From the IMG/VR virus record IMGVR_UViG_3300005002_000003: a DNA stretch of 20,000 nt. The stretch is one strand, 5' to 3'. Position numbers and translations under genes: made by a program. This stretch comes from an uncultured virus (IMG/VR IMGVR_UViG_3300005002_000003). Taxonomy: Duplodnaviria > Heunggongvirae > Uroviricota > Caudoviricetes. The notes under the pieces were generated by a model. That model did no database searches, had not been told where the DNA came from, and saw only the letters and a list, made by a program, of their open reading frames with translations. Below, in pieces: positions 5,997 through 20,000 of the stretch; the stretch's first letter is position 1; each line of letters opens with the position of its first letter.

Positions 5997-7490
5997 ATGC
6001 CATTCCAAGCCTCCCGCGATCCGGGGAAAAACATCTCTCATCTCAAACACAGCAAGCACGGGAAGAAAATGAAGCCCGAGCAACGCCTGGCGGCGGGCCT
6101 CACCATGGCGCGTAAAGCCGGCGCCGATATTCCGGAGAAAGTCGAGGAAAGTCGCACGCTGTTTATCGACGGCCGGCAGGCTTTCAATGCCAGGGGCCAG
6201 AAGATCGCAACTCTGGAGTCCCTTCAGCACGGCTTTGAGATCGCCGCCATGCGGGGCTTCTCGGAGGTTGTGGATGTCCGAAGCAAGGCGCGATACGTGG
6301 AAGCCAAAGGAAAATTACAGGAAGGCGGCGGTGCCGGCGTCCAGGTGTTTTTCAAAGCGCACCTCACGCCAGCTGGTAAACCCGACACTTACTCCATGCG
6401 AGGAGAAATCCAACTGATATCTTACAACGATTCAATCTCCTCAGAAGACGAGAGGAACGACGAGATTGACCTCGGCACCATCAAAGTCAAATTACATCCT
6501 GAAGTTGTGAAAGAACTGCGCCAGAAAATGCGTAGCGAACAGCAACTCACCACAAAGAAGTTCAGCCAGACTATTCGCATCACCCATGCTGAGTCGCATG
6601 GCTTCGTAGTGAGTGGCGGCTGGATTCGCAAGCCACTTCCCGACAGTGTCTCTACGCCCGGTGGAAGTACTTCTTCAGCATTTCTCTCCGTGGAAGTAAC
6701 CTACGGGCACGACATGATTGTTCAGGAAGAATCCAACTTGTGGACTTGGTATCCATCCGAAGACGTGAAGGGACTGTACGCAGTCCTCGATAGTTTTGAT
6801 GACGAAGAGGAACTTACTGAGAGCGTGCAGGACACCAAAGTAGAGGAAAGTCGCACACTGTTCATGGTCCAAAGCAAGGCGCGATACGTGGAGGCTCATG
6901 CAGATGTCCCTGCCTTACAGAAGCGCACAGCAGACGCGGTCCAGAAATTTGGAGACCTGGCGGCAACCGCTGAGAAACATCTGGCAGACGCCACCTCACA
7001 GCCCACTTATGTAAGTGAGCTGGAAACCGTTTATCAGGCAACTTCAGAACAGTTTCTGAAGGGCGTTACACTTATGGAGCAGGCCTCAAAAGGGCTCTAT
7101 CGATTTCTGTATTCCCCTGATGACGTGAGCGAAATCATGTCATCTCTCACCGAGAGCGCGCAGGACACCTTGAAGAAAGACGTCGTGGCGTACTTCACAG
7201 CGAAAATGCCAGAAGAAGTCCAGCAGGCCTGGGCAAACGCCAGCGCCAATCTCATGCACGGTCCCTCCGCCGGAGAGGGCACCTTCCAGAGCAACACGGC
7301 AATTGTCAAGGAATGGGCAGACGCCAATATCTTCGATGTCTATTACGACGAGCAAACCGGAGAAGTAATGACCGACGAGCCGCAAGGCTTCGAAGACGGC
7401 GATGAGTGGGTTGAGCCCGGAGAATACTGGCAGATTGACGGCTATGATGCCAAACGCTGGGTATTTGGCGAACTTGCGCGTTACGTATGA
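5997..7490 (+). CDS. putative internal head polyprotein with repeated E|S linkers
   Basis: 497 aa. Duplicated KVEESRTLF, SKARYVEA and LTES(V/A)QDT segments, and an acidic C-terminal module. Confidence 0.6.
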   Translation: MPFQASRDPGKNISHLKHSKHGKKMKPEQRLAAGLTMARKAGADIPEKVEESRTLFIDGRQAFNARGQKIATLESLQHGFEIAAMRGFSEVVDVRSKARYVEAKGKLQEGGGAGVQVFFKAHLTPAGKPDTYSMRGEIQLISYNDSISSEDERNDEIDLGTIKVKLHPEVVKELRQKMRSEQQLTTKKFSQTIRITHAESHGFVVSGGWIRKPLPDSVSTPGGSTSSAFLSVEVTYGHDMIVQEESNLWTWYPSEDVKGLYAVLDSFDDEEELTESVQDTKVEESRTLFMVQSKARYVEAHADVPALQKRTADAVQKFGDLAATAEKHLADATSQPTYVSELETVYQATSEQFLKGVTLMEQASKGLYRFLYSPDDVSEIMSSLTESAQDTLKKDVVAYFTAKMPEEVQQAWANASANLMHGPSAGEGTFQSNTAIVKEWADANIFDVYYDEQTGEVMTDEPQGFEDGDEWVEPGEYWQIDGYDAKRWVFGELARYV

Positions 7491-7798
7491 GAGAGACTAT
7501 GATCGACTCCAGATACGCCGCAGACATGCGTTTCCTTCGCGAGGGAGATACTGACCGCGAGATGCGCGCACTACGCGAAGGCGTAATGGATTACAAACAT
7601 ACGCCAACCAATCTTCAGAACTTGGCGTCCAAAAATCCACTAGCTTCGCCGCGCACATCAGGCGTCAGCGATGACGACTATCTGCGAAAGCACGGCGCCA
7701 GATTGCCGGCCCCACGCCAGGAAGACAATCTGCTCGCCCCGGCCAACAGGCTCTGCAACTCGCGATTAAGAAAGGCCTGGTGCAGGGACACTTTGTAA
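7487..7798 (+). CDS. small putative head protein (LREG twice), possible -1 frameshift product ending at 7809
   Basis: ATGA overlap, FLRE|G and ALRE|G motifs, CGA-AAG at 7685-7690. Confidence 0.55.
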   Translation: MRETMIDSRYAADMRFLREGDTDREMRALREGVMDYKHTPTNLQNLASKNPLASPRTSGVSDDDYLRKHGARLPAPRQEDNLLAPANRLCNSRLRKAWCRDTL

Positions 7799-9787: not shown

Positions 9788-11983
9788 ATGACTCCCTCTA
9801 CTCGTGACCCCCGTGATCCTCAATACCAGAGATACCTTCGTGCTGTAGCCGGCGCTCAGCGCGTGCTACAAGAACGCCAGGTGGTGGAAAATCTTGAGTC
9901 AGGTCAAACCGTTCAACTCTACCTCTGCTACATCGGCGACGGCTACCTGTATGGCGTCAGCGACAACGACGCCGCAAGATCCCCCAGCTACTGGGCCGGG
10001 GTAGATGAAGGCATGGACATCGTGCAGGCCACGTTCCCTGCGGCCATAGCACAAGACCTTCTGAGCTTCACGAACTCCGAGGCCTCCTCCAGCGTAGGCG
10101 ACGGCTACGAGGCCGCTGATCTCGCCGCAAAGCATATGCAAAACGACACCGTCATCTACTCCAGCAAGGGCGAAGCAGAAGACGGCATGATGGAATCCGC
10201 TAGAGTGGCACAGTCTCCGGCCCCGCGATGGAACGAGTCACTGACGCATGTTCAGCAACAACTGAGTTCAATTGACCCCGCTGAGTTCGAAGCCCGCATG
10301 AACGCGGCAAAAAACTTCAAGCAACTCTCCGCAGTTCTGGATGACTACGGCATTGATATCAACCTCTCCAAACAGGGTGATACTTACCAGTGGCAGATTG
10401 CAGGCGCTCCGAAGATGTCAGCAAATGGACGCGGGTTCCAGAAAGCTCGGACCTCCATCACTTCGCAATTGAAGCGGGACATGGTTCCCTCCGGCGCGCG
10501 GGTTAACGAAGACGGAGACAGACTCTCTGGTGATGATCCATCCTCGCTTCAGGAATCCGTAGAAGGATCATCCTTACTGATCAAAGAAGTAGCACGCGAT
10601 CTTATTTCTATGTCGGTAGCGGATGCGCTGGAACGCGAAAACCATGACGCGCTATCCGATTTTGTCAGGTCTCAGGAAGACATTACGGAAACTGTGCCTA
10701 TAGGGTTGCAAGAACACGGGATTGACATAGATAGTTACATTGCGCCAGTCGAAGAACTCGTGAGACAAATTGCAGAACAAATTGGCTCCGAAAACCTGGG
10801 CAAACTCCAGGACGTAGATGATCGAGCACTGTGGTTGGTAATAATGGGTCCGATCCTCAATCATGGCGTAGGCCCTACAGATGATCCCGCTCTGGCAACG
10901 GTTTACAAGGAGGTGGGTTCTCCTCGCCCACAAGTGAAAGGACTGGACGTAACTCTCTTCAATGTTGCTGAAGACATCATCTCTCGCATTTCTAATGGCA
11001 CCTCCATGCTTCAGGAATCCACAGAAGGCAAAGTAGCTCGTAGCTATGTCATCCACGATCACGGAATTGATCACGCGCAATATTTCCGGGGCCACGGTCT
11101 CGCGCATTCCGATATGGAGGACACCGCAACTGGAGCCGGAGACACATTTGAAGACGCTCTGGAAGACGCACTTGATCAACTGGCTTCAGATGATTGGGAT
11201 TTAAGTCAGATCGAGTCCGCAATCGCAACAGAAGCCGCAAGCGCTGGCGCATCTTCATCCGCAGTGGAGGAGTTGAAAACACAAATTCGCGACGAAATCC
11301 TGGCGGAAAATCCAGAGTTTATAGATCCAGAAACCGACGATGTCTATGAAGACAAAGCAGATGAGTTAGAGGGGATGATCGAAGACGTTCTGCAAGACGA
11401 AGGCGGCGATCTCTACTACTACGTGTCTGTAGACGTAAGCACTCAGCCCGCAGGAGGAGGTATCCGGGAATCCACAGAAGGCAACAACCGGTGGGAAGTC
11501 ATCTGGCTTGATGTCTGGGGAAATGCAGAAGAAGGTTTTGAAGTCAATGACGCGCATCATACCGGCAGGTTCGTAGAACTTCCTCCAGAAGTGGCGATGG
11601 GCATTACAGAAGAAGAAGAGCAACAGCTCGTTGACATCCTGATTGCCGCAGGTGAGCTGAGGCGTGACGTCAAAGCCCATCAGATCGAAGTCGAAGACCT
11701 GGGGGAGAACGACATCGGCATCAATGACGCCGAAACCAGAGAACCCTTGTTTCAGCTCCAGCGCGTGGTTGAGACTCAATCAGCCGAGAAGGCAGGCGAG
11801 AAAGTCCAGGAGAAACTCGCACGTCAGGTAATGGAAATCCGCATGCTTGCCGGCGGGAAGTTCGGCATCTTCGACAAGTCCATGAGAGGTGCGGAACCCC
11901 TGGCGAAAGCCAACTCCTGGCATGAAGCCAGAATGAAAATCAACTCCATGATGAGAGACGCGCAGAAGCCGCTGAAAGATTGA
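9788..11983 (+). CDS. acidic putative internal head polyprotein with repeat-bounded modules
   Basis: 731 aa. Linkers LQE|SVEG, LQE|STEG and IRE|STEG, plus MME|S and WNE|S. Confidence 0.65.
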   Translation: MTPSTRDPRDPQYQRYLRAVAGAQRVLQERQVVENLESGQTVQLYLCYIGDGYLYGVSDNDAARSPSYWAGVDEGMDIVQATFPAAIAQDLLSFTNSEASSSVGDGYEAADLAAKHMQNDTVIYSSKGEAEDGMMESARVAQSPAPRWNESLTHVQQQLSSIDPAEFEARMNAAKNFKQLSAVLDDYGIDINLSKQGDTYQWQIAGAPKMSANGRGFQKARTSITSQLKRDMVPSGARVNEDGDRLSGDDPSSLQESVEGSSLLIKEVARDLISMSVADALERENHDALSDFVRSQEDITETVPIGLQEHGIDIDSYIAPVEELVRQIAEQIGSENLGKLQDVDDRALWLVIMGPILNHGVGPTDDPALATVYKEVGSPRPQVKGLDVTLFNVAEDIISRISNGTSMLQESTEGKVARSYVIHDHGIDHAQYFRGHGLAHSDMEDTATGAGDTFEDALEDALDQLASDDWDLSQIESAIATEAASAGASSSAVEELKTQIRDEILAENPEFIDPETDDVYEDKADELEGMIEDVLQDEGGDLYYYVSVDVSTQPAGGGIRESTEGNNRWEVIWLDVWGNAEEGFEVNDAHHTGRFVELPPEVAMGITEEEEQQLVDILIAAGELRRDVKAHQIEVEDLGENDIGINDAETREPLFQLQRVVETQSAEKAGEKVQEKLARQVMEIRMLAGGKFGIFDKSMRGAEPLAKANSWHEARMKINSMMRDAQKPLKD
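10546..11484 (+). repeat. three dispersed direct repeats encoding (L/I)(Q/R)ES(V/T)EG
   Basis: GCTTCAGGAATCCGTAGAAGG (10546-10566), GCTTCAGGAATCCACAGAAGGCAA (11008-11031) and GGAATCCACAGAAGGCAA (11467-11484, an 18-bp exact match to the second copy). Confidence 0.85.
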
Positions 11984-12363
11984 TGCGCATCCTTTTTCTT
12001 GACGATGATGACAACCGGCACCGGGCTTTCAGCAGATGGCTGACGCCCGGACACGACGTTGTCTTTGTTCACACAGCGGCTGAAGCCATACAGGCACTGA
12101 CGTCCCAGAGTTTCGACATCGCGTTTCTCGATCACGATCTCGGTGGTGAAGTCATGGTGACCAGGGTGGAGAACACCGGTTACGAAGTCACGTTGTGGAT
12201 GGAGGCGCACGAACTGTTGTGCCCCGCTGTTGTGGTGTTGCACTCCATGAACCCCTCGGGCCGCCTGCGGCAACAACAAGCACTGCGCGGCCTCCGAAAC
12301 GTCACCGCACATGCCTTGAGCTTCTCATCTCTGATGACGACTCCCTGCACGCTTCAGGCCTGA
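11983..12363 (+). CDS. stand-alone receiver domain, cyclic-phosphate-processing (cREC-like) type
   Basis: Motifs MRILFLDDD, FDIAFLDHDLG, TGYEV and LHSMNPSGR. TGATG overlap places the start at 11983. Confidence 0.8.
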   Translation: MRILFLDDDDNRHRAFSRWLTPGHDVVFVHTAAEAIQALTSQSFDIAFLDHDLGGEVMVTRVENTGYEVTLWMEAHELLCPAVVVLHSMNPSGRLRQQQALRGLRNVTAHALSFSSLMTTPCTLQA

Positions 12364-12393: not shown

Positions 12394-14256
12394 ATGACCA
12401 CCACATATCTGGAGTCCAGAGCGGCTAAACTCGGTTTACGCGTGCTCGTAGAATCATCTCAGGTGAGCCTTGGCGACACCGGAGTAACCATTGAACGCTG
12501 TGAGCCCGGAGTCCTGACTGAAGGCACGCAGGGCAAATACCAGGCACTCGCAATCGTACGCAACGTGCCGTTCACGAGGTTCACACGCAACCGCAACGGC
12601 CGCACGTATCTCAGAGAGCTATGGCAACGCGTGCTGGAGACCATCGAAGGCAGTCTGTCGTTCTGCGACCATCCACTGGAGAACACCAACTACCACCCGC
12701 ACAGCGGCGACGGCAGTATGGAGCGCATCTGCGGCGTCTTCCACAACGCCAGGCTGGGAGAGGAATGTGGATACGTGGACTGGTATCTCGTGGGCCCCAT
12801 CGGCAAGCTCATCCTCGAAACCCTGCAAGCCGGCGCCAAAGGCGTGGGGCTGTCAACAGTGGGATTCGGCCAGATCAAGGAGAACTACTACGACGCCAAC
12901 GGCTTCATCCTTGAGGGAGTTGTTGATCCCGAGACCTTCATCTATGAGCGCACGGACTGCGTGTTTCAGCCCAGTCAGGGAGTATTTGCAACCATCGCAA
13001 ATCTCGGTGAAAACACGGGATTTCGGGAAAATCAAAATACTAATGACAGAAGTACTTCTAAATCAGAAGCGAGGAACAGCAATAATATGGATCAAGTAAA
13101 ACTGCTTGAAGGCAATGCAAAGTACCAGACATCCGAGCGCGTGAAGCTCGCAAACAAAGCTCTGAAGTCCGGCGATCTGCAAGAACTCACAGAGCGTTTC
13201 GAAGACCTCAAAGGCTTTGCGGTCGTAGTCGAAAGCATGCCGGCTGAACGCCAGAAGATCGCAGAAGCCCGCGAGCAACTGGAAGCCGCAATCAGCGAAG
13301 CCGCTCTCAAGGGTCAGGACGCTCAGGTAGCGCTCCAGGGCACGGCAAAAAAACTCGCTCTTGCCGAGCAGATGCTGGTGGAAGCCCGCAAGGCCAACAA
13401 GCAGATGGTGGCGGTAATCGAACGCCTGGGCGGAACTCCAGAGACTCTGGACAAGCTCAAGGTAGTTGACGACATGGCGGAGTCCATCGAGACCTTCAAG
13501 GCCAATGAAGCCAAATACAAGCTCAACGAAAAAATCAAAGACGCTGATCTTCAGATTTACGAGAAGGAAATCAACAAAATCTCCAAAGACAACAAGGTCT
13601 ACGAAGGCGAAAACCGCGAACTCGTGGCCGACAACGAATTCCTGGTGAAACAACTTGAGGCTCGCGACGGCGACATCAAGAAATCCCTCAAAGACCGCAT
13701 GGTTATGGAAGGCGATGTGTTGAAGCTCGTGGCCAGCGTGACCAACCTCACGGAAGACCTCGCAGTCGCAGAGGAGAGCATTGCTATCCTTCGCAACAGA
13801 CTGCGCGAAGCCGGCCTGGAAGACGATCCGTATGCGGAAGTCATCGGGGCTCCGCGTGCTGTTAACCCCAGGTTCCCGCAGGAAAATTCCGAAGGCAAGG
13901 GACAGGAGACCGCAAGTCCCGCCATGCGCCGTCAGGCAAGTTCTCGGGGCTACACAATGGGTGAGCGCGCAAACTCTGCTTCTCGCAAAGCGCCTGCTGA
14001 GGGAATCAAGGAGTCCGTGGTGCGCAACGAGATCCGGAGCTTCTACGAGCAGAAAGCCGCAGAATACCCCGCACTCCAGCGCCATCGCGATGCCGTGCTG
14101 AACAGCAAGACGTTGTTCGAAGCCGTGCGCGTAGTGGAAGCCATGACAAGGAATGGTGAAGACCCCGTGATTCGCGCCAGCGAAGACAGTGGAACCAGCT
14201 TCACGGAGTCCAGCCGGGCGGCGAATCGACCATCCTGGCTCAGAGACCGACTGTAA
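12394..14256 (+). CDS. prohead protease (T4 gp21-like) fused to a scaffold domain
   Basis: NRNGRTY, DHP and GLSTVGFG resemble the gp21-family NRNGRxY, xxxHP and GVSSRG motifs. Long coiled-coil C-terminal half, directly upstream of the major capsid gene, with ACTAAC at 12381. Confidence 0.85.
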   Translation: MTTTYLESRAAKLGLRVLVESSQVSLGDTGVTIERCEPGVLTEGTQGKYQALAIVRNVPFTRFTRNRNGRTYLRELWQRVLETIEGSLSFCDHPLENTNYHPHSGDGSMERICGVFHNARLGEECGYVDWYLVGPIGKLILETLQAGAKGVGLSTVGFGQIKENYYDANGFILEGVVDPETFIYERTDCVFQPSQGVFATIANLGENTGFRENQNTNDRSTSKSEARNSNNMDQVKLLEGNAKYQTSERVKLANKALKSGDLQELTERFEDLKGFAVVVESMPAERQKIAEAREQLEAAISEAALKGQDAQVALQGTAKKLALAEQMLVEARKANKQMVAVIERLGGTPETLDKLKVVDDMAESIETFKANEAKYKLNEKIKDADLQIYEKEINKISKDNKVYEGENRELVADNEFLVKQLEARDGDIKKSLKDRMVMEGDVLKLVASVTNLTEDLAVAEESIAILRNRLREAGLEDDPYAEVIGAPRAVNPRFPQENSEGKGQETASPAMRRQASSRGYTMGERANSASRKAPAEGIKESVVRNEIRSFYEQKAAEYPALQRHRDAVLNSKTLFEAVRVVEAMTRNGEDPVIRASEDSGTSFTESSRAANRPSWLRDRL

Positions 14257-14438: not shown

Positions 14439-15995
14439 ATGCAACGACTCAGAAATGCGCCTGTTGCCGGTCGTCTCCCAGCACCCGTTGCCTACAAGCA
14501 CGGACGCCGACTTCCTGCACAGCAGTCACTGACTGAAAATCGTCCTGCCGCGTCTCGCGAGCAGTACATCGAAAAACGCATTGTAGCTCTGGACCGTCTT
14601 GTAGAAGAATGGAACCGCAGACCAGAAGGACAATATCTGGAAAGCGTTTACGCCAAGTCTCCTACCATTGCACGGAACACAGCACTGCTCCTGGAAAACC
14701 AGCGCAGACACATGCTTCACATCCGGGAATCCGGAACCCAAATCTCCTCGGCTTTCGGCACGTCTCCAGAGAACGTGTTGCGCATCGTCCGCATCGGCGT
14801 GGCGAACAGCAACCGTGCTGACGTCTTCACAGAATGGGCACTTACGTCTGTAAACGACGCGCTCTTCTATGTAGACGGAGTCTACGGAACATCTATTCGC
14901 GGCGCTACAGCTGGCAATCGTATCTACGATTACGGCGCAGTAACTGCGGATTACGGCGGAGCTTTCCAGACCATCAACGGCACACCTTCCACAGGTGACG
15001 GCGCGACTACAACGTTCACAGGAACATTCTCTCCTACAAATATCAAGCCACACAGCGTGCAAATCGTTGTAGGTAATGCGTTTGTGGGCACAGACGACGG
15101 TGCGGGAAACCTCATCGGAACTCCGAACGGTAGCGGCGGCACAACAGCCACTGTGTCTTCGGGAACCGTGAGCTACACAGCGGGAACATTCTCTGTGACT
15201 CTGACTACGGCTCCAGCACTTGGTGTTGAAATCCGTGCGCAGGCAGTATGGGATGCAGAAAACAGCGCGAACTACTCGTCTTACAACGACATTCAGCTGA
15301 AAGTCTACAAGCGTCCATTCCACCTCATGATGCATCCGATTCGCATCGCTTACTCCAAGATGTCCGAACTGACGTTCGAGACCACTGGACTCGGCGACTT
15401 CGACGAGCAGATCATCAAGCGCGCAGGCGACGAGATGGCAAAACGCCGTGACTTCAAAGCCTTCCAGCTCGCAAGACGCGTAGCGGGACAGAGCACTCCA
15501 TATGTGTTCGACGCAGATCCGGCAAGTGGAAACGACGACAACGACTTTAACCACGCTCAGCGTATCCTGACAACCATCGATAACATCGGTGGCGATATCT
15601 TCGATGCACTGCAACGTGGTGAGATCACGAAAATCGTGGGCAACCCGAAAGCCGTGAACTACTTCCGTAAGAACCTCCAGTGGAAATCCGCTTCTTCTCA
15701 ACAGAAGGTTGGCGCTTCCTATCTCGCGGGTAAACTTGCGGACATCGACGTCTACGTGACTCCAAGTCACTCCACAACAGTAGCGGGAACTTCATCTTCT
15801 GGAGAAGCGATTTGTGTATACAAAAACGCGCAAGAAGAAGGCGAACCGTCTCTGGCGTTCGGCACACTGACAGAACTCAGTGCTGGTCTGGACTACCCAC
15901 AGATGTATCGTGAAGTTGTCCTCGCGCATGTTGAGGGCGAAAACGTGATTCAGCCGGGCTTCATCAAGCTCCTGCAAATCAACAACATCAAGTAA
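14439..15995 (+). CDS. major capsid protein (T4 gp23-like, HK97 fold) with an inserted beta-rich domain
   Basis: gp23-like N-terminus (LVEEW...TALLLENQ...IRE|S), ALFYVD and YLAGKL...VYVTP. Located after the protease/scaffold and flanked by strong terminators. Confidence 0.9.
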   Translation: MQRLRNAPVAGRLPAPVAYKHGRRLPAQQSLTENRPAASREQYIEKRIVALDRLVEEWNRRPEGQYLESVYAKSPTIARNTALLLENQRRHMLHIRESGTQISSAFGTSPENVLRIVRIGVANSNRADVFTEWALTSVNDALFYVDGVYGTSIRGATAGNRIYDYGAVTADYGGAFQTINGTPSTGDGATTTFTGTFSPTNIKPHSVQIVVGNAFVGTDDGAGNLIGTPNGSGGTTATVSSGTVSYTAGTFSVTLTTAPALGVEIRAQAVWDAENSANYSSYNDIQLKVYKRPFHLMMHPIRIAYSKMSELTFETTGLGDFDEQIIKRAGDEMAKRRDFKAFQLARRVAGQSTPYVFDADPASGNDDNDFNHAQRILTTIDNIGGDIFDALQRGEITKIVGNPKAVNYFRKNLQWKSASSQQKVGASYLAGKLADIDVYVTPSHSTTVAGTSSSGEAICVYKNAQEEGEPSLAFGTLTELSAGLDYPQMYREVVLAHVEGENVIQPGFIKLLQINNIK

Positions 15996-16019
15996 TCCCT
16001 CTGAAGAGCCTACTTGAGC

Positions 16020-16053
16020 AATCCCCCGGGGTCACAGCCGGGGGATTTTTTTT
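16020..16053 (+). terminator. rho-independent terminator of the capsid gene (insertion target)
   Basis: AATCCCCCGG-GGTCACAG-CCGGGGGA followed by T8. Confidence 0.9.
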
Positions 16054-16135
16054 CGGAATTATCCCGCAGAGTACATCCAGTTATGTCGTCTGATCGAACT
16101 GGATCGCCTGCCTGTTTACTAAAGATACAAAGGAC

Positions 16136-16510
16136 ATGAGACTGGTAGAACTACAACGACTTTATGCGAGTGGCGGATCATTGTATGAATCTTTTACTTA
16201 TGAATCGTTCTGGCTTTCACCAGAAGGTGAAGTGTCAAAATGGGAGAATCATCGTCTTGGTGCTTTTACAATTCTTAATCGAGATAAAAATGATAATCTT
16301 CATGATTCAATAAGAGCAGATGCGAGAGCCATTGGCTGGCGTGATTTCATCATTACCAATGATAAAAAACTGTGGTTGCGAATGAGATGGGATCACTTGA
16401 ATAAGGTGCAGAAAAAAGCTATTGAAACAATAGCACGAAAACATAAACTTGAGATCAAAGAAGGTACCGAAATGGACGAACTGAACTCTGGAAATCATAC
16501 TGTAAACTGA
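16136..16510 (+). CDS. passenger protein 1: shared leader plus a WLSPEG...H...GW domain of unknown function
   Basis: 124 aa, AT-rich relative to the flanks, preceded by ACTAAAGATACA and AAGGA. Confidence 0.8.
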   Translation: MRLVELQRLYASGGSLYESFTYESFWLSPEGEVSKWENHRLGAFTILNRDKNDNLHDSIRADARAIGWRDFIITNDKKLWLRMRWDHLNKVQKKAIETIARKHKLEIKEGTEMDELNSGNHTVN

Positions 16511-16520
16511 CCAAACCAGT

Positions 16521-16673
16521 TCACGCCGCAGTAGCCAGCAAAGTTCGCTTCATAAAATCGTGAAAGATGTTCTCGTTCTTCCGATTGCTGAACCTCCAGG
16601 AAAATTCGTCGATGTATGCTTGCAGGTACTTCGGGCTGATGTGGTGATACGAGCCGATAATCCCACGCTTCAT
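16521..16673 (-). pseudogene. IS1595-family transposase C-terminal remnant
   Basis: MKRGIIGSYHHISPKYLQAYIDEFSWRFSNRK matches the family C-terminal KRxxxGxYHxxSxKxLxxYxDEFxxRxN motif. It lies 4 bp from the TIR, so the catalytic core is deleted. Confidence 0.9.
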
Positions 16674-16710
16674 GTTTCGGGATAATTCCGTTTTTTTTTT
16701 GCATTTTGTG

Positions 16711-16738
16711 TTGACAACTTTGTGCCGGGGGATATGGT
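16711..16738 (+). promoter_or_regulatory. sigma70-type (early) promoter, probably leaderless
   Basis: TTGACA, 16-bp spacer, TATGGT, then 6 nt to ATG 16745. Same architecture as the promoter at 3036. Confidence 0.7.
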
Positions 16739-16744
16739 GTCTCC

Positions 16745-17359
16745 ATGGAAACAACAGCGACAAAAACAATTGATCAGCGCATTGCGGAAGAACGTCAGGG
16801 AGGCATGACCTATCTCCAGCTCGCGAAAGACGTCATGGAGAACTACCCGGAATACAGTTTCTGCATGATCTGCACAGAGTTCTCCTACGAAGGCGAAGGC
16901 AGATTTAAGTTCCACGATCAGGAGACTCTGGGGGCGGAATTCACCTGTTATGCCTGCGGTAAAGACGCCGCTGATGAGCCCGGAGGCTCGCTCTACCACT
17001 CACATCCGCTTTCGGATTGCAAGGGGAGCGACGGTCAGCCCTGGGCCGACGTTGCGCTGTGCCTGTGCTCCTCCTGCGCAGACGCCACAAAGGACATGAC
17101 CACAGTAGATCAGTTTATGGACTACAAAGCGTCTGTGGCCCAGCATGTTGAGGAAACCGATGAGCGGACGGGCTTGAAGCTCTGGACGGTGACCTACGCG
17201 AGCTTCGCCAAGGGCCTCGAACTCTACCACCTCATGATCCAGAACGGTAAGTGGCGCGGCGATGCTCCCGCGAGCTTCTACGACGCCGGAGACTGGGATG
17301 CCGTTATGGCGGATGTCGCACTGCAACTCTCGATTTTCGGGGAGGTCATCTACGGCTGA
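16745..17359 (+). CDS. phage hypothetical protein with a zinc-finger-like insert and a C-terminal DAxxADxxLQxxxFGEVIYG motif
   Basis: 204 aa with CYAC...CSSC. Has its own promoter and terminator. Confidence 0.75.
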   Translation: METTATKTIDQRIAEERQGGMTYLQLAKDVMENYPEYSFCMICTEFSYEGEGRFKFHDQETLGAEFTCYACGKDAADEPGGSLYHSHPLSDCKGSDGQPWADVALCLCSSCADATKDMTTVDQFMDYKASVAQHVEETDERTGLKLWTVTYASFAKGLELYHLMIQNGKWRGDAPASFYDAGDWDAVMADVALQLSIFGEVIYG

Positions 17360-17381
17360 CAGGCAGAGCGGTCCATTGTTC

Positions 17382-17410
17382 AAGAGGCGGATAACCTCCG
17401 CCTTTTTTTT
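17382..17410 (+). terminator. rho-independent terminator (second insertion target)
   Basis: AGGCGGA-TAACC-TCCGCC followed by T8. Confidence 0.85.
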
Positions 17411-17411
17411 A

Positions 17412-18148
17412 CGGAATTATCCCTCAGTGTACACAGGCTTATGACGCATTAGAATCGCCTCAGATCACTAAAGATACAGGTATGCGTCTGGTAGAATTGC
17501 AAAGGCTTTATGAGAGCGGCGGATCGCTGTATGAAGCAAATTTTTCTCGAATTGAAAAACACGATGATTTTGGTAGGTACTACATCATTGACGGTGCAAT
17601 CGATCCAAATGGAAACTGGAAACGATTAGCCAGCATTCCAGATGATAATTATGTAGCTCTATACCATGCGACAAGCAGAGAGAACGCTCAGGCAATTTTG
17701 GATTCTGGCTGGAATAGAGATGTTGCAACAGAAAAATCTGTGTGGAAGAATCCACTTGGGCAGTTTATTTTTCTTGGTTCTAAGAATGGTCTTGGAACAT
17801 ACTTAGCTCACGCTGGGCGTGATCCTGTATTTCTTGTTTTCAAAGCAAGAAAAAGCGATCTACAACCAGACGATGGCCCAGATTGGGAGCATTACAGGAA
17901 GAATGATAGGAACAGATTTGGCGGACGAAGCGATTTGCCTGTGCATCCAAAAGTAGAAGATACTTACGGTCGCATAAATCAAGTTCGTGTCCATTCTTCA
18001 AAAGCAATACCCATCGGAATTGATGAATTTAGATAGTTTCTTACGCTGTTTTAACAAGCACCGTCCGCTTCATGTAATCGTGGAAAATATTCTCGTTTTT
18101 TCGATTTGAAAATCTCCAGGAGAATTCGTCGATGCACGATTGAAGATA
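17412..18148. mobile_element. second IS1595-family derivative with a passenger gene, one end missing (cassette 2)
   Basis: Same left end CGGAATTATCCC with conserved subterminal blocks (CAGxGTACA, TTATGxCG, ATCGCCT, ACTAAAGATACA). Convergent transposase tail YLQSCIDEFSWRFSNRKNENIFHDYMKR at 18041-18148. No right TIR found. Confidence 0.8.
17482..18036 (+). CDS. passenger protein 2: shared leader plus an ADP-ribosyltransferase-like domain
   Basis: LYHATSRENAQAILDSGW, FIFLG, VFLVF and terminal QVRV...IP follow the strand order of ART-superfamily domains. AT-rich. Confidence 0.65.
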   Translation: MRLVELQRLYESGGSLYEANFSRIEKHDDFGRYYIIDGAIDPNGNWKRLASIPDDNYVALYHATSRENAQAILDSGWNRDVATEKSVWKNPLGQFIFLGSKNGLGTYLAHAGRDPVFLVFKARKSDLQPDDGPDWEHYRKNDRNRFGGRSDLPVHPKVEDTYGRINQVRVHSSKAIPIGIDEFR

Positions 18149-18410
18149 GCCTTCCTGACAGGCGGCCTTACTTGTGCCCCAGAGAACCCGAAAAGTGAAG
18201 TCCTGTCCGTCGCGCCATGTGCTTTTTCGCGAGATGTAGCTGGTGAGCTTCCCAGCCTGGAGCTTTCCTTCGCGGGTAAGTCGAAAGACTTTCTGCTCTC
18301 TGGCCGTGAGCCGGGATTTGTAGTGCAGATCCACGGATGCGCGGAGGGTCTCTGTCATGCGTGATGTGGAAGCCCCGGTAGGTTCCGAAGCTGATTGCGT
18401 CTTGATTCAT
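18041..18410 (-). pseudogene. chimeric or disrupted ORF: resident gene fused to the transposase tail
   Basis: A minus-strand TTGACA-17-TGTAGT (18446-18418) precedes ATG 18410. A second frame from ATG 18358 runs in-frame into the IS1595 tail. Confidence 0.45.
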
Positions 18411-18465
18411 GGTTTGCACTACAACGACAGCACACCGAGCTGTCAAACAAATTCCCTAATACCAG

Positions 18466-20000
18466 GTGTTGCCAGAAAATCTTGCCGCTGATTTCAACAA
18501 GCTCAGTGCCGTCGAACAGCAGGCAGTGAAGGAGATCCTCGGCGGCAACACTGCGTTGCTCCGCCAGTTGCAGGGACACACATTTCGCAAACCGCCCCCC
18601 AGCCCGGAGGAGTTCCTCGACCCCCGCAACGGCTGGCTTCCGGAGGGAGTGGCCAACAAACTCTTTGCACACGTCAAGGAGGACTTCTGTAATATCCTCA
18701 GCGGAAAGTATTCGCAGGTGGCGTTATACGGCGCTGTCCGTATGGGAAAAAGCGTGGGATCTGTCCTGCTCATGGCGTATGTCATAGTCTACATGCACCA
18801 CCTTACCAGCATGGCGGGGGCCTACAATTTGATCTCAACCTCCGCGCTTTCCATCTACTTGATGAGCTTCAAGTATGAGAAGGTGTATGAACTCTACATT
18901 CAGCCGCTGTTCGAGATTCTAGAGCAGAGCCCGAGGTTCCAGAAGACACACTTCCGCGACAACGTGCGAGAAGAGCAGGAAGCCGCTGGAGACGACATCA
19001 TCGTGTATTCAGAGGCCGCGAGAGTCGGGGAGATCACGCTGGCATCTGGCCTGCAACTCGTGACGGGTAATGACGACGCGCTGTCAATCATCGGCGCCAA
19101 CATCATCTGCGCCTTCATCTCAGAGATCGGCTTCTTTATCGAGAAAGCCGGGGCCACCGAGGAGCAGATTTTCCGCATCTACACCGATACCGTCAGTCGT
19201 ATTCGAGGCACTGTTGGCAACAACTACCTGGCGTTCACACTGCTGGATACGTCGGCAAACCTGGCGGAGTCGCAGATCGAACAGCACATCATCAGCAAGA
19301 TGCAATACCGGCCAGAGGTATACTTCCGCTGGCGCAAGCAGTGGGATGCTCCGGAACTCTGTGAGAAGTTTTTCCCCGCATACCACAAAGACAACTCCCA
19401 GGTCTTCCATGTCTGCGTGGGGGATGGCGAGACTCCCGCTCGTATCCTGGAACCCGGAGAGGAACACAACTACGCCCCCGGTCTGGTGGTATCCCCTCCA
19501 ATTGATGTCAAACAGGCTTTTGAAGACAACTTGCTGAAGTCCATCAAAGACATCGCGGGCCAGCCCGCCACCAGCGAGAGCAAGTTCCTGCAACAACGCA
19601 GTCTGATTGCGTCGATCTTCGACCCCACGCTTCCCAACGTCGAAGCCTCAGTTGTGGCCGACAGCAAGTCCATCCCGGAGGATTTGATCTGGAACGCCGT
19701 CAGCCACCTGTTCTTTTCAAAAGGGAACGGAGTTGATCTGTCGCTGATCCGCGCGCCGTCAGCGCCGCGCTACATCGGAGTGGATCTGGCAACCAGCGTT
19801 CGAGGAGACGTCGCAGGCATCGCCATGGCTCACGAGGAACAAATGGAAGATGGTACCGCCACGACGATCTTCGACTTCGCATTTGCGGTGGCACCGGGCC
19901 CCAACGGCATCAACCTCGAAGCCATCCAGATGTTCATCCGTGATCTCCGGGACAAAGGCAGAGTTCACATCGAGCAGGTCAGTGTTGACCAGTACCAAAG
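18466..20000 (+). CDS. terL: terminase large subunit, 3'-truncated
   Basis: Frame 1 is open from GTG 18466 to the window end and is absent from the ORF track. Walker A YGAVRMGKS, Walker B CAFISE, coupling-motif-like LDTSAN and RNase H nuclease YIGVDLA...GDVAGI. CTAAT begins 10 nt before the start. Confidence 0.88.
   Translation, partial: MLPENLAADFNKLSAVEQQAVKEILGGNTALLRQLQGHTFRKPPPSPEEFLDPRNGWLPEGVANKLFAHVKEDFCNILSGKYSQVALYGAVRMGKSVGSVLLMAYVIVYMHHLTSMAGAYNLISTSALSIYLMSFKYEKVYELYIQPLFEILEQSPRFQKTHFRDNVREEQEAAGDDIIVYSEAARVGEITLASGLQLVTGNDDALSIIGANIICAFISEIGFFIEKAGATEEQIFRIYTDTVSRIRGTVGNNYLAFTLLDTSANLAESQIEQHIISKMQYRPEVYFRWRKQWDAPELCEKFFPAYHKDNSQVFHVCVGDGETPARILEPGEEHNYAPGLVVSPPIDVKQAFEDNLLKSIKDIAGQPATSESKFLQQRSLIASIFDPTLPNVEASVVADSKSIPEDLIWNAVSHLFFSKGNGVDLSLIRAPSAPRYIGVDLATSVRGDVAGIAMAHEEQMEDGTATTIFDFAFAVAPGPNGINLEAIQMFIRDLRDKGRVHIEQVSVDQYQ

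What the first reader, a model, noticed from the sequence alone, without database searches (positions are those of the whole stretch)
16054..18148. IS1595-derived cassettes pairing a phage late promoter and a shared, possibly capsid-targeting leader with swappable payloads
Seen: two elements share the architecture TIR - ACTAAAGATACA - passenger gene - convergent transposase tail. The passengers share an 18-aa N-terminus (MRLVELQRLY[A/E]SGGSLYE, 16136-16189 and 17482-17535) and are unrelated afterwards. Of 10 nucleotide differences in the leader, 9 are synonymous, which suggests selection on the peptide. The leader ends in L-Y-E|S/A. Known: T4 gp21 cleaves after (L/I)-x-E, T4 internal proteins carry a short cleaved capsid-targeting peptide, and some IS1595 members carry passenger genes. 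Inference: a phage-adapted transposon family whose cargo is expressed late, packaged into the head, matured by the prohead protease and injected into the next host. I do not know of a described system like this.
Basis: partly seen in the sequence, partly recalled or inferred. Interest (0 to 1): 0.93.

Follow-up and report, generated by a model that had tools for sequence, protein, structure and literature searches.

The report
Transposon cassettes with capsid-loading tags
In an uncultured sludge phage, two broken-down jumping genes each carry a different passenger gene behind the phage's own late promoter and the same short tag that looks like a "load into the capsid, then cut off" signal, which suggests a transposon that delivers injectable phage proteins, though loading and cutting have not been measured.

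Summary
Observation confirmed, with one correction: element 1 (16054-16690) is a complete transposase-less IS1595 cassette; element 2 (17412-18148) has lost its transposase-side end. A Treponema IS1595 has the identical 12-bp inverted repeat and an 8-bp target duplication; intact transposases 86-93% identical to the remnant exist. Both elements sit in terminator T-tracts. ACTAAA-N5-purine matches the phage's own late-gene starts (3 of 4 host sites lie 11 nt before an ATG). The shared 18-residue leader is under purifying selection (pS 0.62, pN 0.05), stops sharply at codon 18 and ends in the motif enriched in the phage's head proteins (16 vs 4.9 expected). Payload 2 has an ADP-ribosyltransferase fold and belongs to a domain family found in polyvalent proteins; payload 1 is unassigned. 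Best reading: a transporter IS rewired to the T-even internal-protein logic. Not shown: packaging, cleavage, present mobility, phage location of the intact transposases; the leader was found on only two cassettes and one homologue. Both halves are known, and this scan noted each half on other DNA; the combination was in neither the papers searched nor earlier notes.

The parts
16020..16053 (+). Terminator hairpin of the major capsid gene plus T8 tract; insertion site and left target copy of element 1
16054..16065 (+). Terminal inverted repeat, passenger-side end of element 1
   Evidence: identical repeat ends a Treponema IS1595
16118..16129 (+). ACTAAAGATACA, probable phage late promoter (ACTAAA-N5-A)
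16136..16189 (+). Shared 18-codon leader of payload 1, ends L-Y-E|S
16136..16510 (+). Passenger gene 1, 124 aa, GC3 0.29, no family or fold assigned
16521..16676 (-). Transposase remnant, last ~51 codons of an IS1595 transposase (from N271 of ~320 aa); DDE core absent
16679..16690 (-). Second terminal inverted repeat of element 1, abutting the remnant
16691..16700 (+). T10 tract; right target copy (T8 duplication inferred)
17386..17411 (+). Hairpin and T8-A tract after gene 16745-17359; insertion site of element 2
17412..17423 (+). Terminal inverted repeat, passenger-side end of element 2
17467..17478 (+). ACTAAAGATACA, probable phage late promoter
17482..17535 (+). Shared 18-codon leader of payload 2, with L-Y-E|S at 11 and L-Y-E|A at 18
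17482..18036 (+). Passenger gene 2, 184 aa, ADP-ribosyltransferase-fold domain from about residue 19-25, GC3 0.32
18041..18148 (-). Transposase remnant of element 2 (about 35 codons), no inverted repeat beyond it
12394..14256 (+). Context: probable prohead protease-scaffold fusion, six phi-x-E-S motifs
   Evidence: (E 5.9e-4 to an annotated head maturation protease, small local database)
14439..15995 (+). Context: major capsid protein, phi-x-E-S at 68 and 97

Best explanation
The two elements are non-autonomous deletion derivatives of a passenger-carrying IS1595 (transposase, convergent passenger, inward promoter at the far end) that has been rewired for life in a large phage with a T4-type head. 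It inserts into terminator T-tracts, where it breaks no gene. Its passenger end holds the phage's late promoter and an 18-residue propeptide. The passenger is made late, loaded into the prohead through the propeptide, cut by the phage's head protease after L-Y-E, and delivered with the DNA into the next host; payload 2 probably acts as an NAD-using enzyme against a host target. Payloads were exchanged by recombination whose left boundary is the cleavage site and whose right boundary is near the last transposase codons. Shown: IS origin and deletion, promoter grammar, leader selection, boundary, ART fold. Inferred: transcription timing, loading, cutting, injection, enzyme activity, the exchange route.
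For: Identical 12-bp TIR and an 8-bp duplication in a Treponema succinifaciens plasmid IS1595 whose transposase is 50% identical to the intact relatives. Intact transposases P0031-P0033, 319-323 aa, 86-93% identical to the remnant, NF033547 E about 1e-53. A Megaera relative has the same transposase/convergent-passenger layout but TTGACA after the TIR and no CTAAA. All 6 ACTAAA of the window are on the + strand; 3 of 4 host sites lie 11 nt before an ATG (p 1.5e-5), the fourth follows the terminator before the capsid gene, and the base 11 nt on is A at all six. phi-x-E-S: 16 observed vs 4.9 expected in 6 head-module genes, 5 vs 4.0 in 13 others. Leader pS 0.62, pN 0.05 while the tails are saturated (pS 0.97). 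Against homologue P0003 the leader is 9 of 18 identical and the body 83 of 96, keeping only M-x-L-V-x-L and S-L-Y-E-S, as a propeptide would. Payload 2 relatives align from residue 19-27 on; 7 of 13 scanned carry ART-PolyVal domains; model pLDDT 84.7, and all 11 structural hits with Z>=5 are ART-fold entries by title. All five T runs of 7 or more in the window belong to four hairpin terminators, two of which hold the elements.
Against: No transcript, virion or cleavage data. The phi-x-E-S motif and the set of head genes were chosen after looking at the sequences, and 2 of the 6 genes have none. No native gene of the window shares the leader. No further cassette was found: 0 of 69 TIR+CTAAA viral hits had a second TIR in the rows shown, 0 leader-like peptides in 162 loci, 0 in metagenome and genome scans. 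No empty site was seen in 4 runs. The intact transposases could not be placed in a phage. CTAAA-type boxes occur near ends of unrelated bacterial IS1595 elements (L092, L095 at about 65-70 nt; L075, L103 at about 22 nt). Best fold score Z 7.1 is under the tool's bar of 8, Foldseek best E 0.011, and the usual acidic catalytic residue seems replaced by Gln. The protease assignment is weak.
Confidence: 0.6

Rival explanations
1. Two dead IS remnants that each captured an ordinary head-cargo gene from a phage family in which many genes share this leader. The genes are now fixed phage morons; the transposon is incidental and there is no specialised mobile system.
For: Both elements lack the catalytic core, element 2 lacks an end, no empty site was seen. 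Payloads are AT-rich (GC3 0.29, 0.32) against 0.55-0.72 in host genes and 0.70 in tail 1, so they came from elsewhere. Stand-alone relatives of payload 2 have other short N-termini with phi-x-E at residues 8-13 (4 of 9 looked at, no control), so leader plus effector is a general phage pattern.
Against: Homology runs unbroken from the TIR through promoter to codon 18 although the two tails are synonymously saturated: promoter and leader were already part of the element before the two lineages split. A contig in run X2 shows another tail allele with the TIR apparently abutting it and other sequence beyond the stop.
Confidence: 0.25
2. ACTAAA is an IS1595 end signal and the leader serves something other than head loading (a sigma-70-driven passenger with a translation-start, stability or partner-binding peptide); the match to phage signals is chance.
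Against: The two closest named elements with mapped ends have no ACTAA at the passenger end; element 1 has no sigma-70-like site there; spacing and +11 A agree with the host's late genes; the conserved part of the leader is the head-protein motif.
Confidence: 0.12
3. The two passengers are diverged paralogues.
For: A gappy short-mode BLAST alignment runs to residue 80-88.
Against: Without the leader the similarity is not significant; payload 2 is an ART-fold domain with its own family, none of whose 26 hits is payload 1.
Confidence: 0.03

Closest known systems
Transporter IS (tIS) of the IS1595 family and their transposase-less derivatives (mobile insertion cassettes; that name is recalled)
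   Same: Short TIR, about 8-bp AT-rich target duplication, passenger gene convergent with the transposase (seen here in L164, L092, L105). TnCentral preprint 10.1101/2021.05.26.445724 (one passage) restricts tIS to IS1595 and IS66.
   Different: Sits in a large phage, lacks the catalytic core, and its passenger end carries a phage late-promoter motif and a shared propeptide instead of a sigma-70 promoter.
T4/T-even internal proteins (IPI-III and the ip loci) with the capsid targeting sequence
   Same: Unrelated small proteins sharing only a 10-19-residue N-terminal propeptide that loads them into the head and is cut off; injected effectors (PMC9026906 and PMC12373910, passages).
   Different: The ip genes are described as chromosomal hotspot genes, not passengers between transposon ends (in the passages read); other phage group, other leader sequence; loading is proven for T4 and only inferred here.
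T4 Alt and the ART domains of polyvalent proteins (ART-PolyVal, PF18760)
   Same: ART fold, His in strand 1, found in the same polyvalent proteins; Alt is packaged, cleaved and injected (PMC5512222 section on ARTs; PMC9026906 passages).
   Different: No PF18760 match; Alt is R-S-E type and ART-PolyVal H-Y-D, whereas payload 2 reads H-(F/Y)-Q by motif order (not checked by superposition); stand-alone 184-aa form.

Membership tests
IS1595 family (tIS or derivative) | IS1595-type DDE transposase sequence | tested here: met
   Remnant PF12762 E 1e-9; intact relatives NF033547 above cut-off
IS1595 family (tIS or derivative) | Terminal inverted repeats at both ends | tested here: met
   Element 1 has both; identical TIR in the Treponema element. 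Element 2 has only one
IS1595 family (tIS or derivative) | 8-bp target duplication (family value recalled) | tested here: inconclusive
   T8 left and T10 right of element 1 fit but a homopolymer does not fix the length; 8-bp duplications in L163 and L164
IS1595 family (tIS or derivative) | Passenger gene inside the ends | tested here: met
   16136-16510 inside element 1
Autonomous tIS | Intact transposase with DDE core in the element | tested here: not met
   Remnant starts at N271 of about 320 aa
IS1595 family (tIS or derivative) | Mobility: empty site or same element at another place | tested here: inconclusive
   No joint in 4 fragmentary runs; one variant contig ends exactly at the TIR
T4-type capsid targeting sequence / internal proteins | Short N-terminal peptide shared by otherwise unrelated proteins | tested here: met
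T4-type capsid targeting sequence / internal proteins | Peptide ends in the head protease motif | tested here: inconclusive
   Ends in L-Y-E|S/A; phi-x-E-S enriched in head genes, post hoc; the true protease specificity is not measured; the T4 L/I-x-E rule is recalled
T4-type capsid targeting sequence / internal proteins | gp21-like prohead protease in the phage | tested here: inconclusive
   Gene before the capsid gene, E 5.9e-4 to an annotated head maturation protease, D-H-P and G-L-S-T motifs; no library or PDB hit
T4-type capsid targeting sequence / internal proteins | Packaging, cleavage and injection | not testable with these tools
   needs virion proteomics
T4-type capsid targeting sequence / internal proteins | Sequence homology to the T4 CTS | not tested
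   no T4 sequence was fetched
ART-PolyVal (PF18760) | Profile match | tested here: not met
   no Pfam family at E<=0.1, while neighbouring domains in the same large proteins do match
ART superfamily | ART fold | tested here: met
   confident model; all 11 hits with Z>=5 of 48,161 chains are ART-fold entries, best Z 7.1, rmsd 4.0 over 107; scores middling
ART superfamily | NAD-dependent activity | not testable with these tools
   H62, T64 nearly invariant and Y107 invariant in 14 sequences; Q167 where an acid is usual (inferred)

The most novel reading that the evidence does not exclude
An active IS1595 lineage lives in large sludge phages and works as a mobile expression-and-delivery vector: its end supplies late promoter and capsid-loading tag, any domain recombined behind codon 18 becomes an injected virion effector, and intact copies move the mini-cassettes between terminators of related phages.
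Probability: 0.3. Interest if true: 0.87.

Novelty: new variant of a known kind. Interest (0 to 1): 0.66.

Why it matters
T-even phages keep a variable arsenal of injected counter-defence proteins that share only a loading tag; how such leader-payload genes arise and spread is open. A transposon end that supplies promoter and tag would be a concrete route. It would also be a rare case of an IS adapted to a phage's lytic programme (IS1595 transposases matched only 2 of 50,697 phage records, both short and distant), it gives a search handle for new injected effectors, and it points to an uncatalogued ART-fold family.

Tried and rejected
No whole genome is held, so only 20 kb of a contig of about 75 kb (longest contig listed) was seen. 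DNA pattern scans for more cassettes: TIR+CTAAA, 69 viral hits, chance-like, none with a second TIR in the rows printed (rows L028-L038 partly cut from view); 0 in metagenomes; TIR+GAAAC, 6 viral hits with unrelated sequence behind; box+leader start, 34 genome and 10 viral hits, none with a TIR (at least 4 mismatches) or leader; conserved passenger end, 0 in genomes. Protein-guided locus searches found no close relative: tail, capsid protein, intact transposase (best 44%, 50, 72), payloads. These collections evidently lack this phage, so the blanks bound bacterial species representatives only loosely and say nothing on phages. Payload 1: no family, model pLDDT 52, no usable atlas or viral fold hit. 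Parts of the stretch without cover (for example payload 2 in run X2) were not used as evidence. Paralogy rejected. Host not determined: nearest named transposases are in Leptospira and Treponema at about 50%, too far to name a host. Literature: no paper joining IS1595 or transposon passengers with phage late promoters or capsid loading in searches (open-licence library only; PMC2255585 on the ip1 locus was not held; no supplements were read, and those of the polyvalent-protein and jumbo-phage papers may list this ART family).

Full report
Setting. The window is part of an uncultured phage found in activated-sludge runs (20 of 24 rows hold part of 15500-18500, 13 studies). Gene 14439-15995 matches one record of 50,697 phages, the major head protein of Pseudomonas phage QdP_Psa3 (28%), and the gene before it matches that phage's head maturation protease weakly. 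No whole genome is held.

The observation. Element 1 is 637 bp with both inverted repeats, between a T8 and a T10 run. Element 2 has one repeat only; its homology to element 1 ends near 18148, where the tail is joined in frame to a GC-rich phage ORF. Contigs from four runs of four studies bridge all the junctions.

It is an IS1595 derivative. The tail matches PF12762. A search among longer proteins gave 4 hits of 7 candidates, three of them intact 319-323-aa transposases 86-93% identical to the tail. The remnant begins at N271, so the catalytic core is gone. The nearest named relatives are about 50% identical (Leptospira, Treponema). The Treponema plasmid element ends in exactly CGGAATTATCCC with an 8-bp duplication; a Megaera plasmid element has a near-identical repeat, a T-rich 8-bp duplication and a convergent passenger with TTGACA just inside the repeat. 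So transposase plus convergent passenger is the inherited layout of this lineage. All five T runs of 7 or more in the window belong to four hairpin terminators; two of these hold the elements, and removing element 1 with one T8 leaves hairpin-T10-GC, like the native hairpin-T8/T9-GC terminators.

The promoter. ACTAAA occurs 6 times, all on the + strand (count alone is near expectation). Three of the four host sites lie exactly 11 nt before an ATG (5997, 7842, 9788; p 1.5e-5 for lying 5-20 nt before one of 18 starts), the fourth follows the terminator ahead of the capsid gene; ACTAAC precedes the protease gene. The base 11 nt after the box start is A at all six sites and G at the seventh, which fits a transcription start with leaderless or near-leaderless messages (inference). 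Against this, ACTAA[AC] lies 65-70 nt inside the passenger end of two distant AT-rich bacterial elements (L092, L095), and CTAAA about 22 nt inside ends of two others (ends with duplication were found in 6 of 36 loci scanned). The two closest mapped elements have no ACTAA at that end.

The leader. pS 0.62 and pN 0.05 (p 7e-5); the tails have pS 0.97, so the two elements are old relatives. Identity in register falls from 14-16 of 18 nt to 1-7 of 18 right after codon 18. The one outside homologue of payload 1 (P0003; 2 hits of 8 candidates, the other being the window's own) keeps 9 of 18 leader residues but 83 of 96 body residues, and what it keeps is the first six-residue pattern and S-L-Y-E-S. 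Hydrophobic-x-E-S occurs 16 times against 4.9 expected in six head-module proteins and 5 against 4.0 in 13 others (motif and gene set chosen post hoc; two of the six have none). No native gene of the window has this leader.

The payloads. Payload 2 has 26 relatives among 1.84 billion representatives (two are repeat proteins matching only residues 20-64). Alignments start at residue 19-27 or later, never in the leader. Of 13 relatives scanned, 7 carry ART-PolyVal domains, others NUDIX, GNAT, sigma-70 or 2H phosphoesterase domains, the make-up of polyvalent proteins, which PMC5512222 (passages and its ART section) predicts to be packaged and injected. The model (pLDDT 84.7, leader region under 60) matches ART-fold chains in all 11 rows with Z of 5 or more, best 7.1; Foldseek agrees weakly (best E 0.011). 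It is not a PF18760 member. Payload 1 stays unassigned. Both payloads are AT-rich at third positions (0.29, 0.32) against 0.55-0.72 for host genes and 0.70 for tail 1.

More cassettes? One contig of run X2 covers 16531-16690 with 17 differences and 4 gaps, ends at the repeat and carries other sequence beyond the transposase stop; one of run X7 has the same foreign flank. Read by hand, the listed differences give the tail allele of P0033. This suggests a third cassette type with the same repeat-tail junction; 6 of the 17 differences are not listed, so the repeat side is not fully verified. X2 also has a strain-variant contig of equal depth that runs from the capsid gene into the element's left end; that both belong to one strain with another payload at this site is a guess. 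The intact transposases differ mostly after the motif K-R-T-V, which fits an exchange boundary there. All direct searches for further cassettes were blank, no empty site was seen, and no close transposase was found among 185,579 species genomes or 72,556 plasmids (all 421 matches under 60%).

Mechanism and comparison. Most likely (0.6) a transporter IS whose passenger end was rewired to the phage late programme and to a head-loading propeptide. It works like the T-even internal proteins, which share nothing but an N-terminal leader that directs packaging (PMC12373910, passages; 10-19-residue propeptides in PMC9026906, passages), but membership of that system is not shown. It is a member of the IS1595 family as a non-autonomous derivative (tIS definition from one passage of the TnCentral preprint). 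PMC7824862 was read in passages and added nothing specific. The T4 L/I-x-E rule, the 8-bp family value and the term mobile insertion cassette are recalled. Searches found no paper on the combination; earlier notes of this scan hold capsid-tag systems and transposase-less IS1595 cassettes in phages separately, and none with both.

Verdict. Real feature; new variant joining two known kinds; interest 0.66. It would deserve about 0.87 if intact, phage-borne, mobile copies with varied packaged payloads are shown (probability 0.3).

Noticed in passing
window 3036, 16711 (+), 18446 (-): Three sigma-70-type promoters (TTGACA, 16-17 nt, -10 box) followed within 6-7 nt by ATG: early-type genes also look leaderless.
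   Followed up: partly
window 18410-18041 (-): An early-type gene with an apparent frameshift near 18358 (GC3 0.76 before, 0.67 in the shifted frame) whose 3' part is fused in frame to the tail of element 2; contigs of runs X4 and X7 show the same sequence.
   Followed up: partly
window 18455-20000 (+): Probable large terminase (Walker A-like motif, no library hit) starting at a GTG at 18466 that lies 11 nt after CCTAAT, a near match to the late box at the same spacing.
   Followed up: no
window 5997-7490 and 9788-11983: Two large unassigned proteins with internal DNA repeats centred on hydrophobic-x-E-S motifs (repeat families D15, D16, D20): look like multi-module head proteins cut into pieces.
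   Followed up: no
window 7487-7798: Small protein with M-R-x-L-R-E-G twice near its N-terminus and a short match to the capsid protein's N-terminal region.
   Followed up: no
window 11980-12363: cREC receiver domain (PF20274, E 7e-17) directly before the protease gene.
   Followed up: no
window 17355-17363 and 18154-18162: The same 9-mer lies just outside both sides of element 2; may be chance.
   Followed up: no
L163 2352-4320: The Treponema succinifaciens plasmid IS1595 has a tandemly doubled left end (two copies of the repeat 36 nt apart) and a small gene ahead of the transposase.
   Followed up: no
P0002, P0020, P0021, P0009: Stand-alone members of the payload 2 family carry other short N-terminal peptides with hydrophobic-x-E at residues 8-13; P0002 has a second domain after I-T-E-S.
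   Followed up: partly
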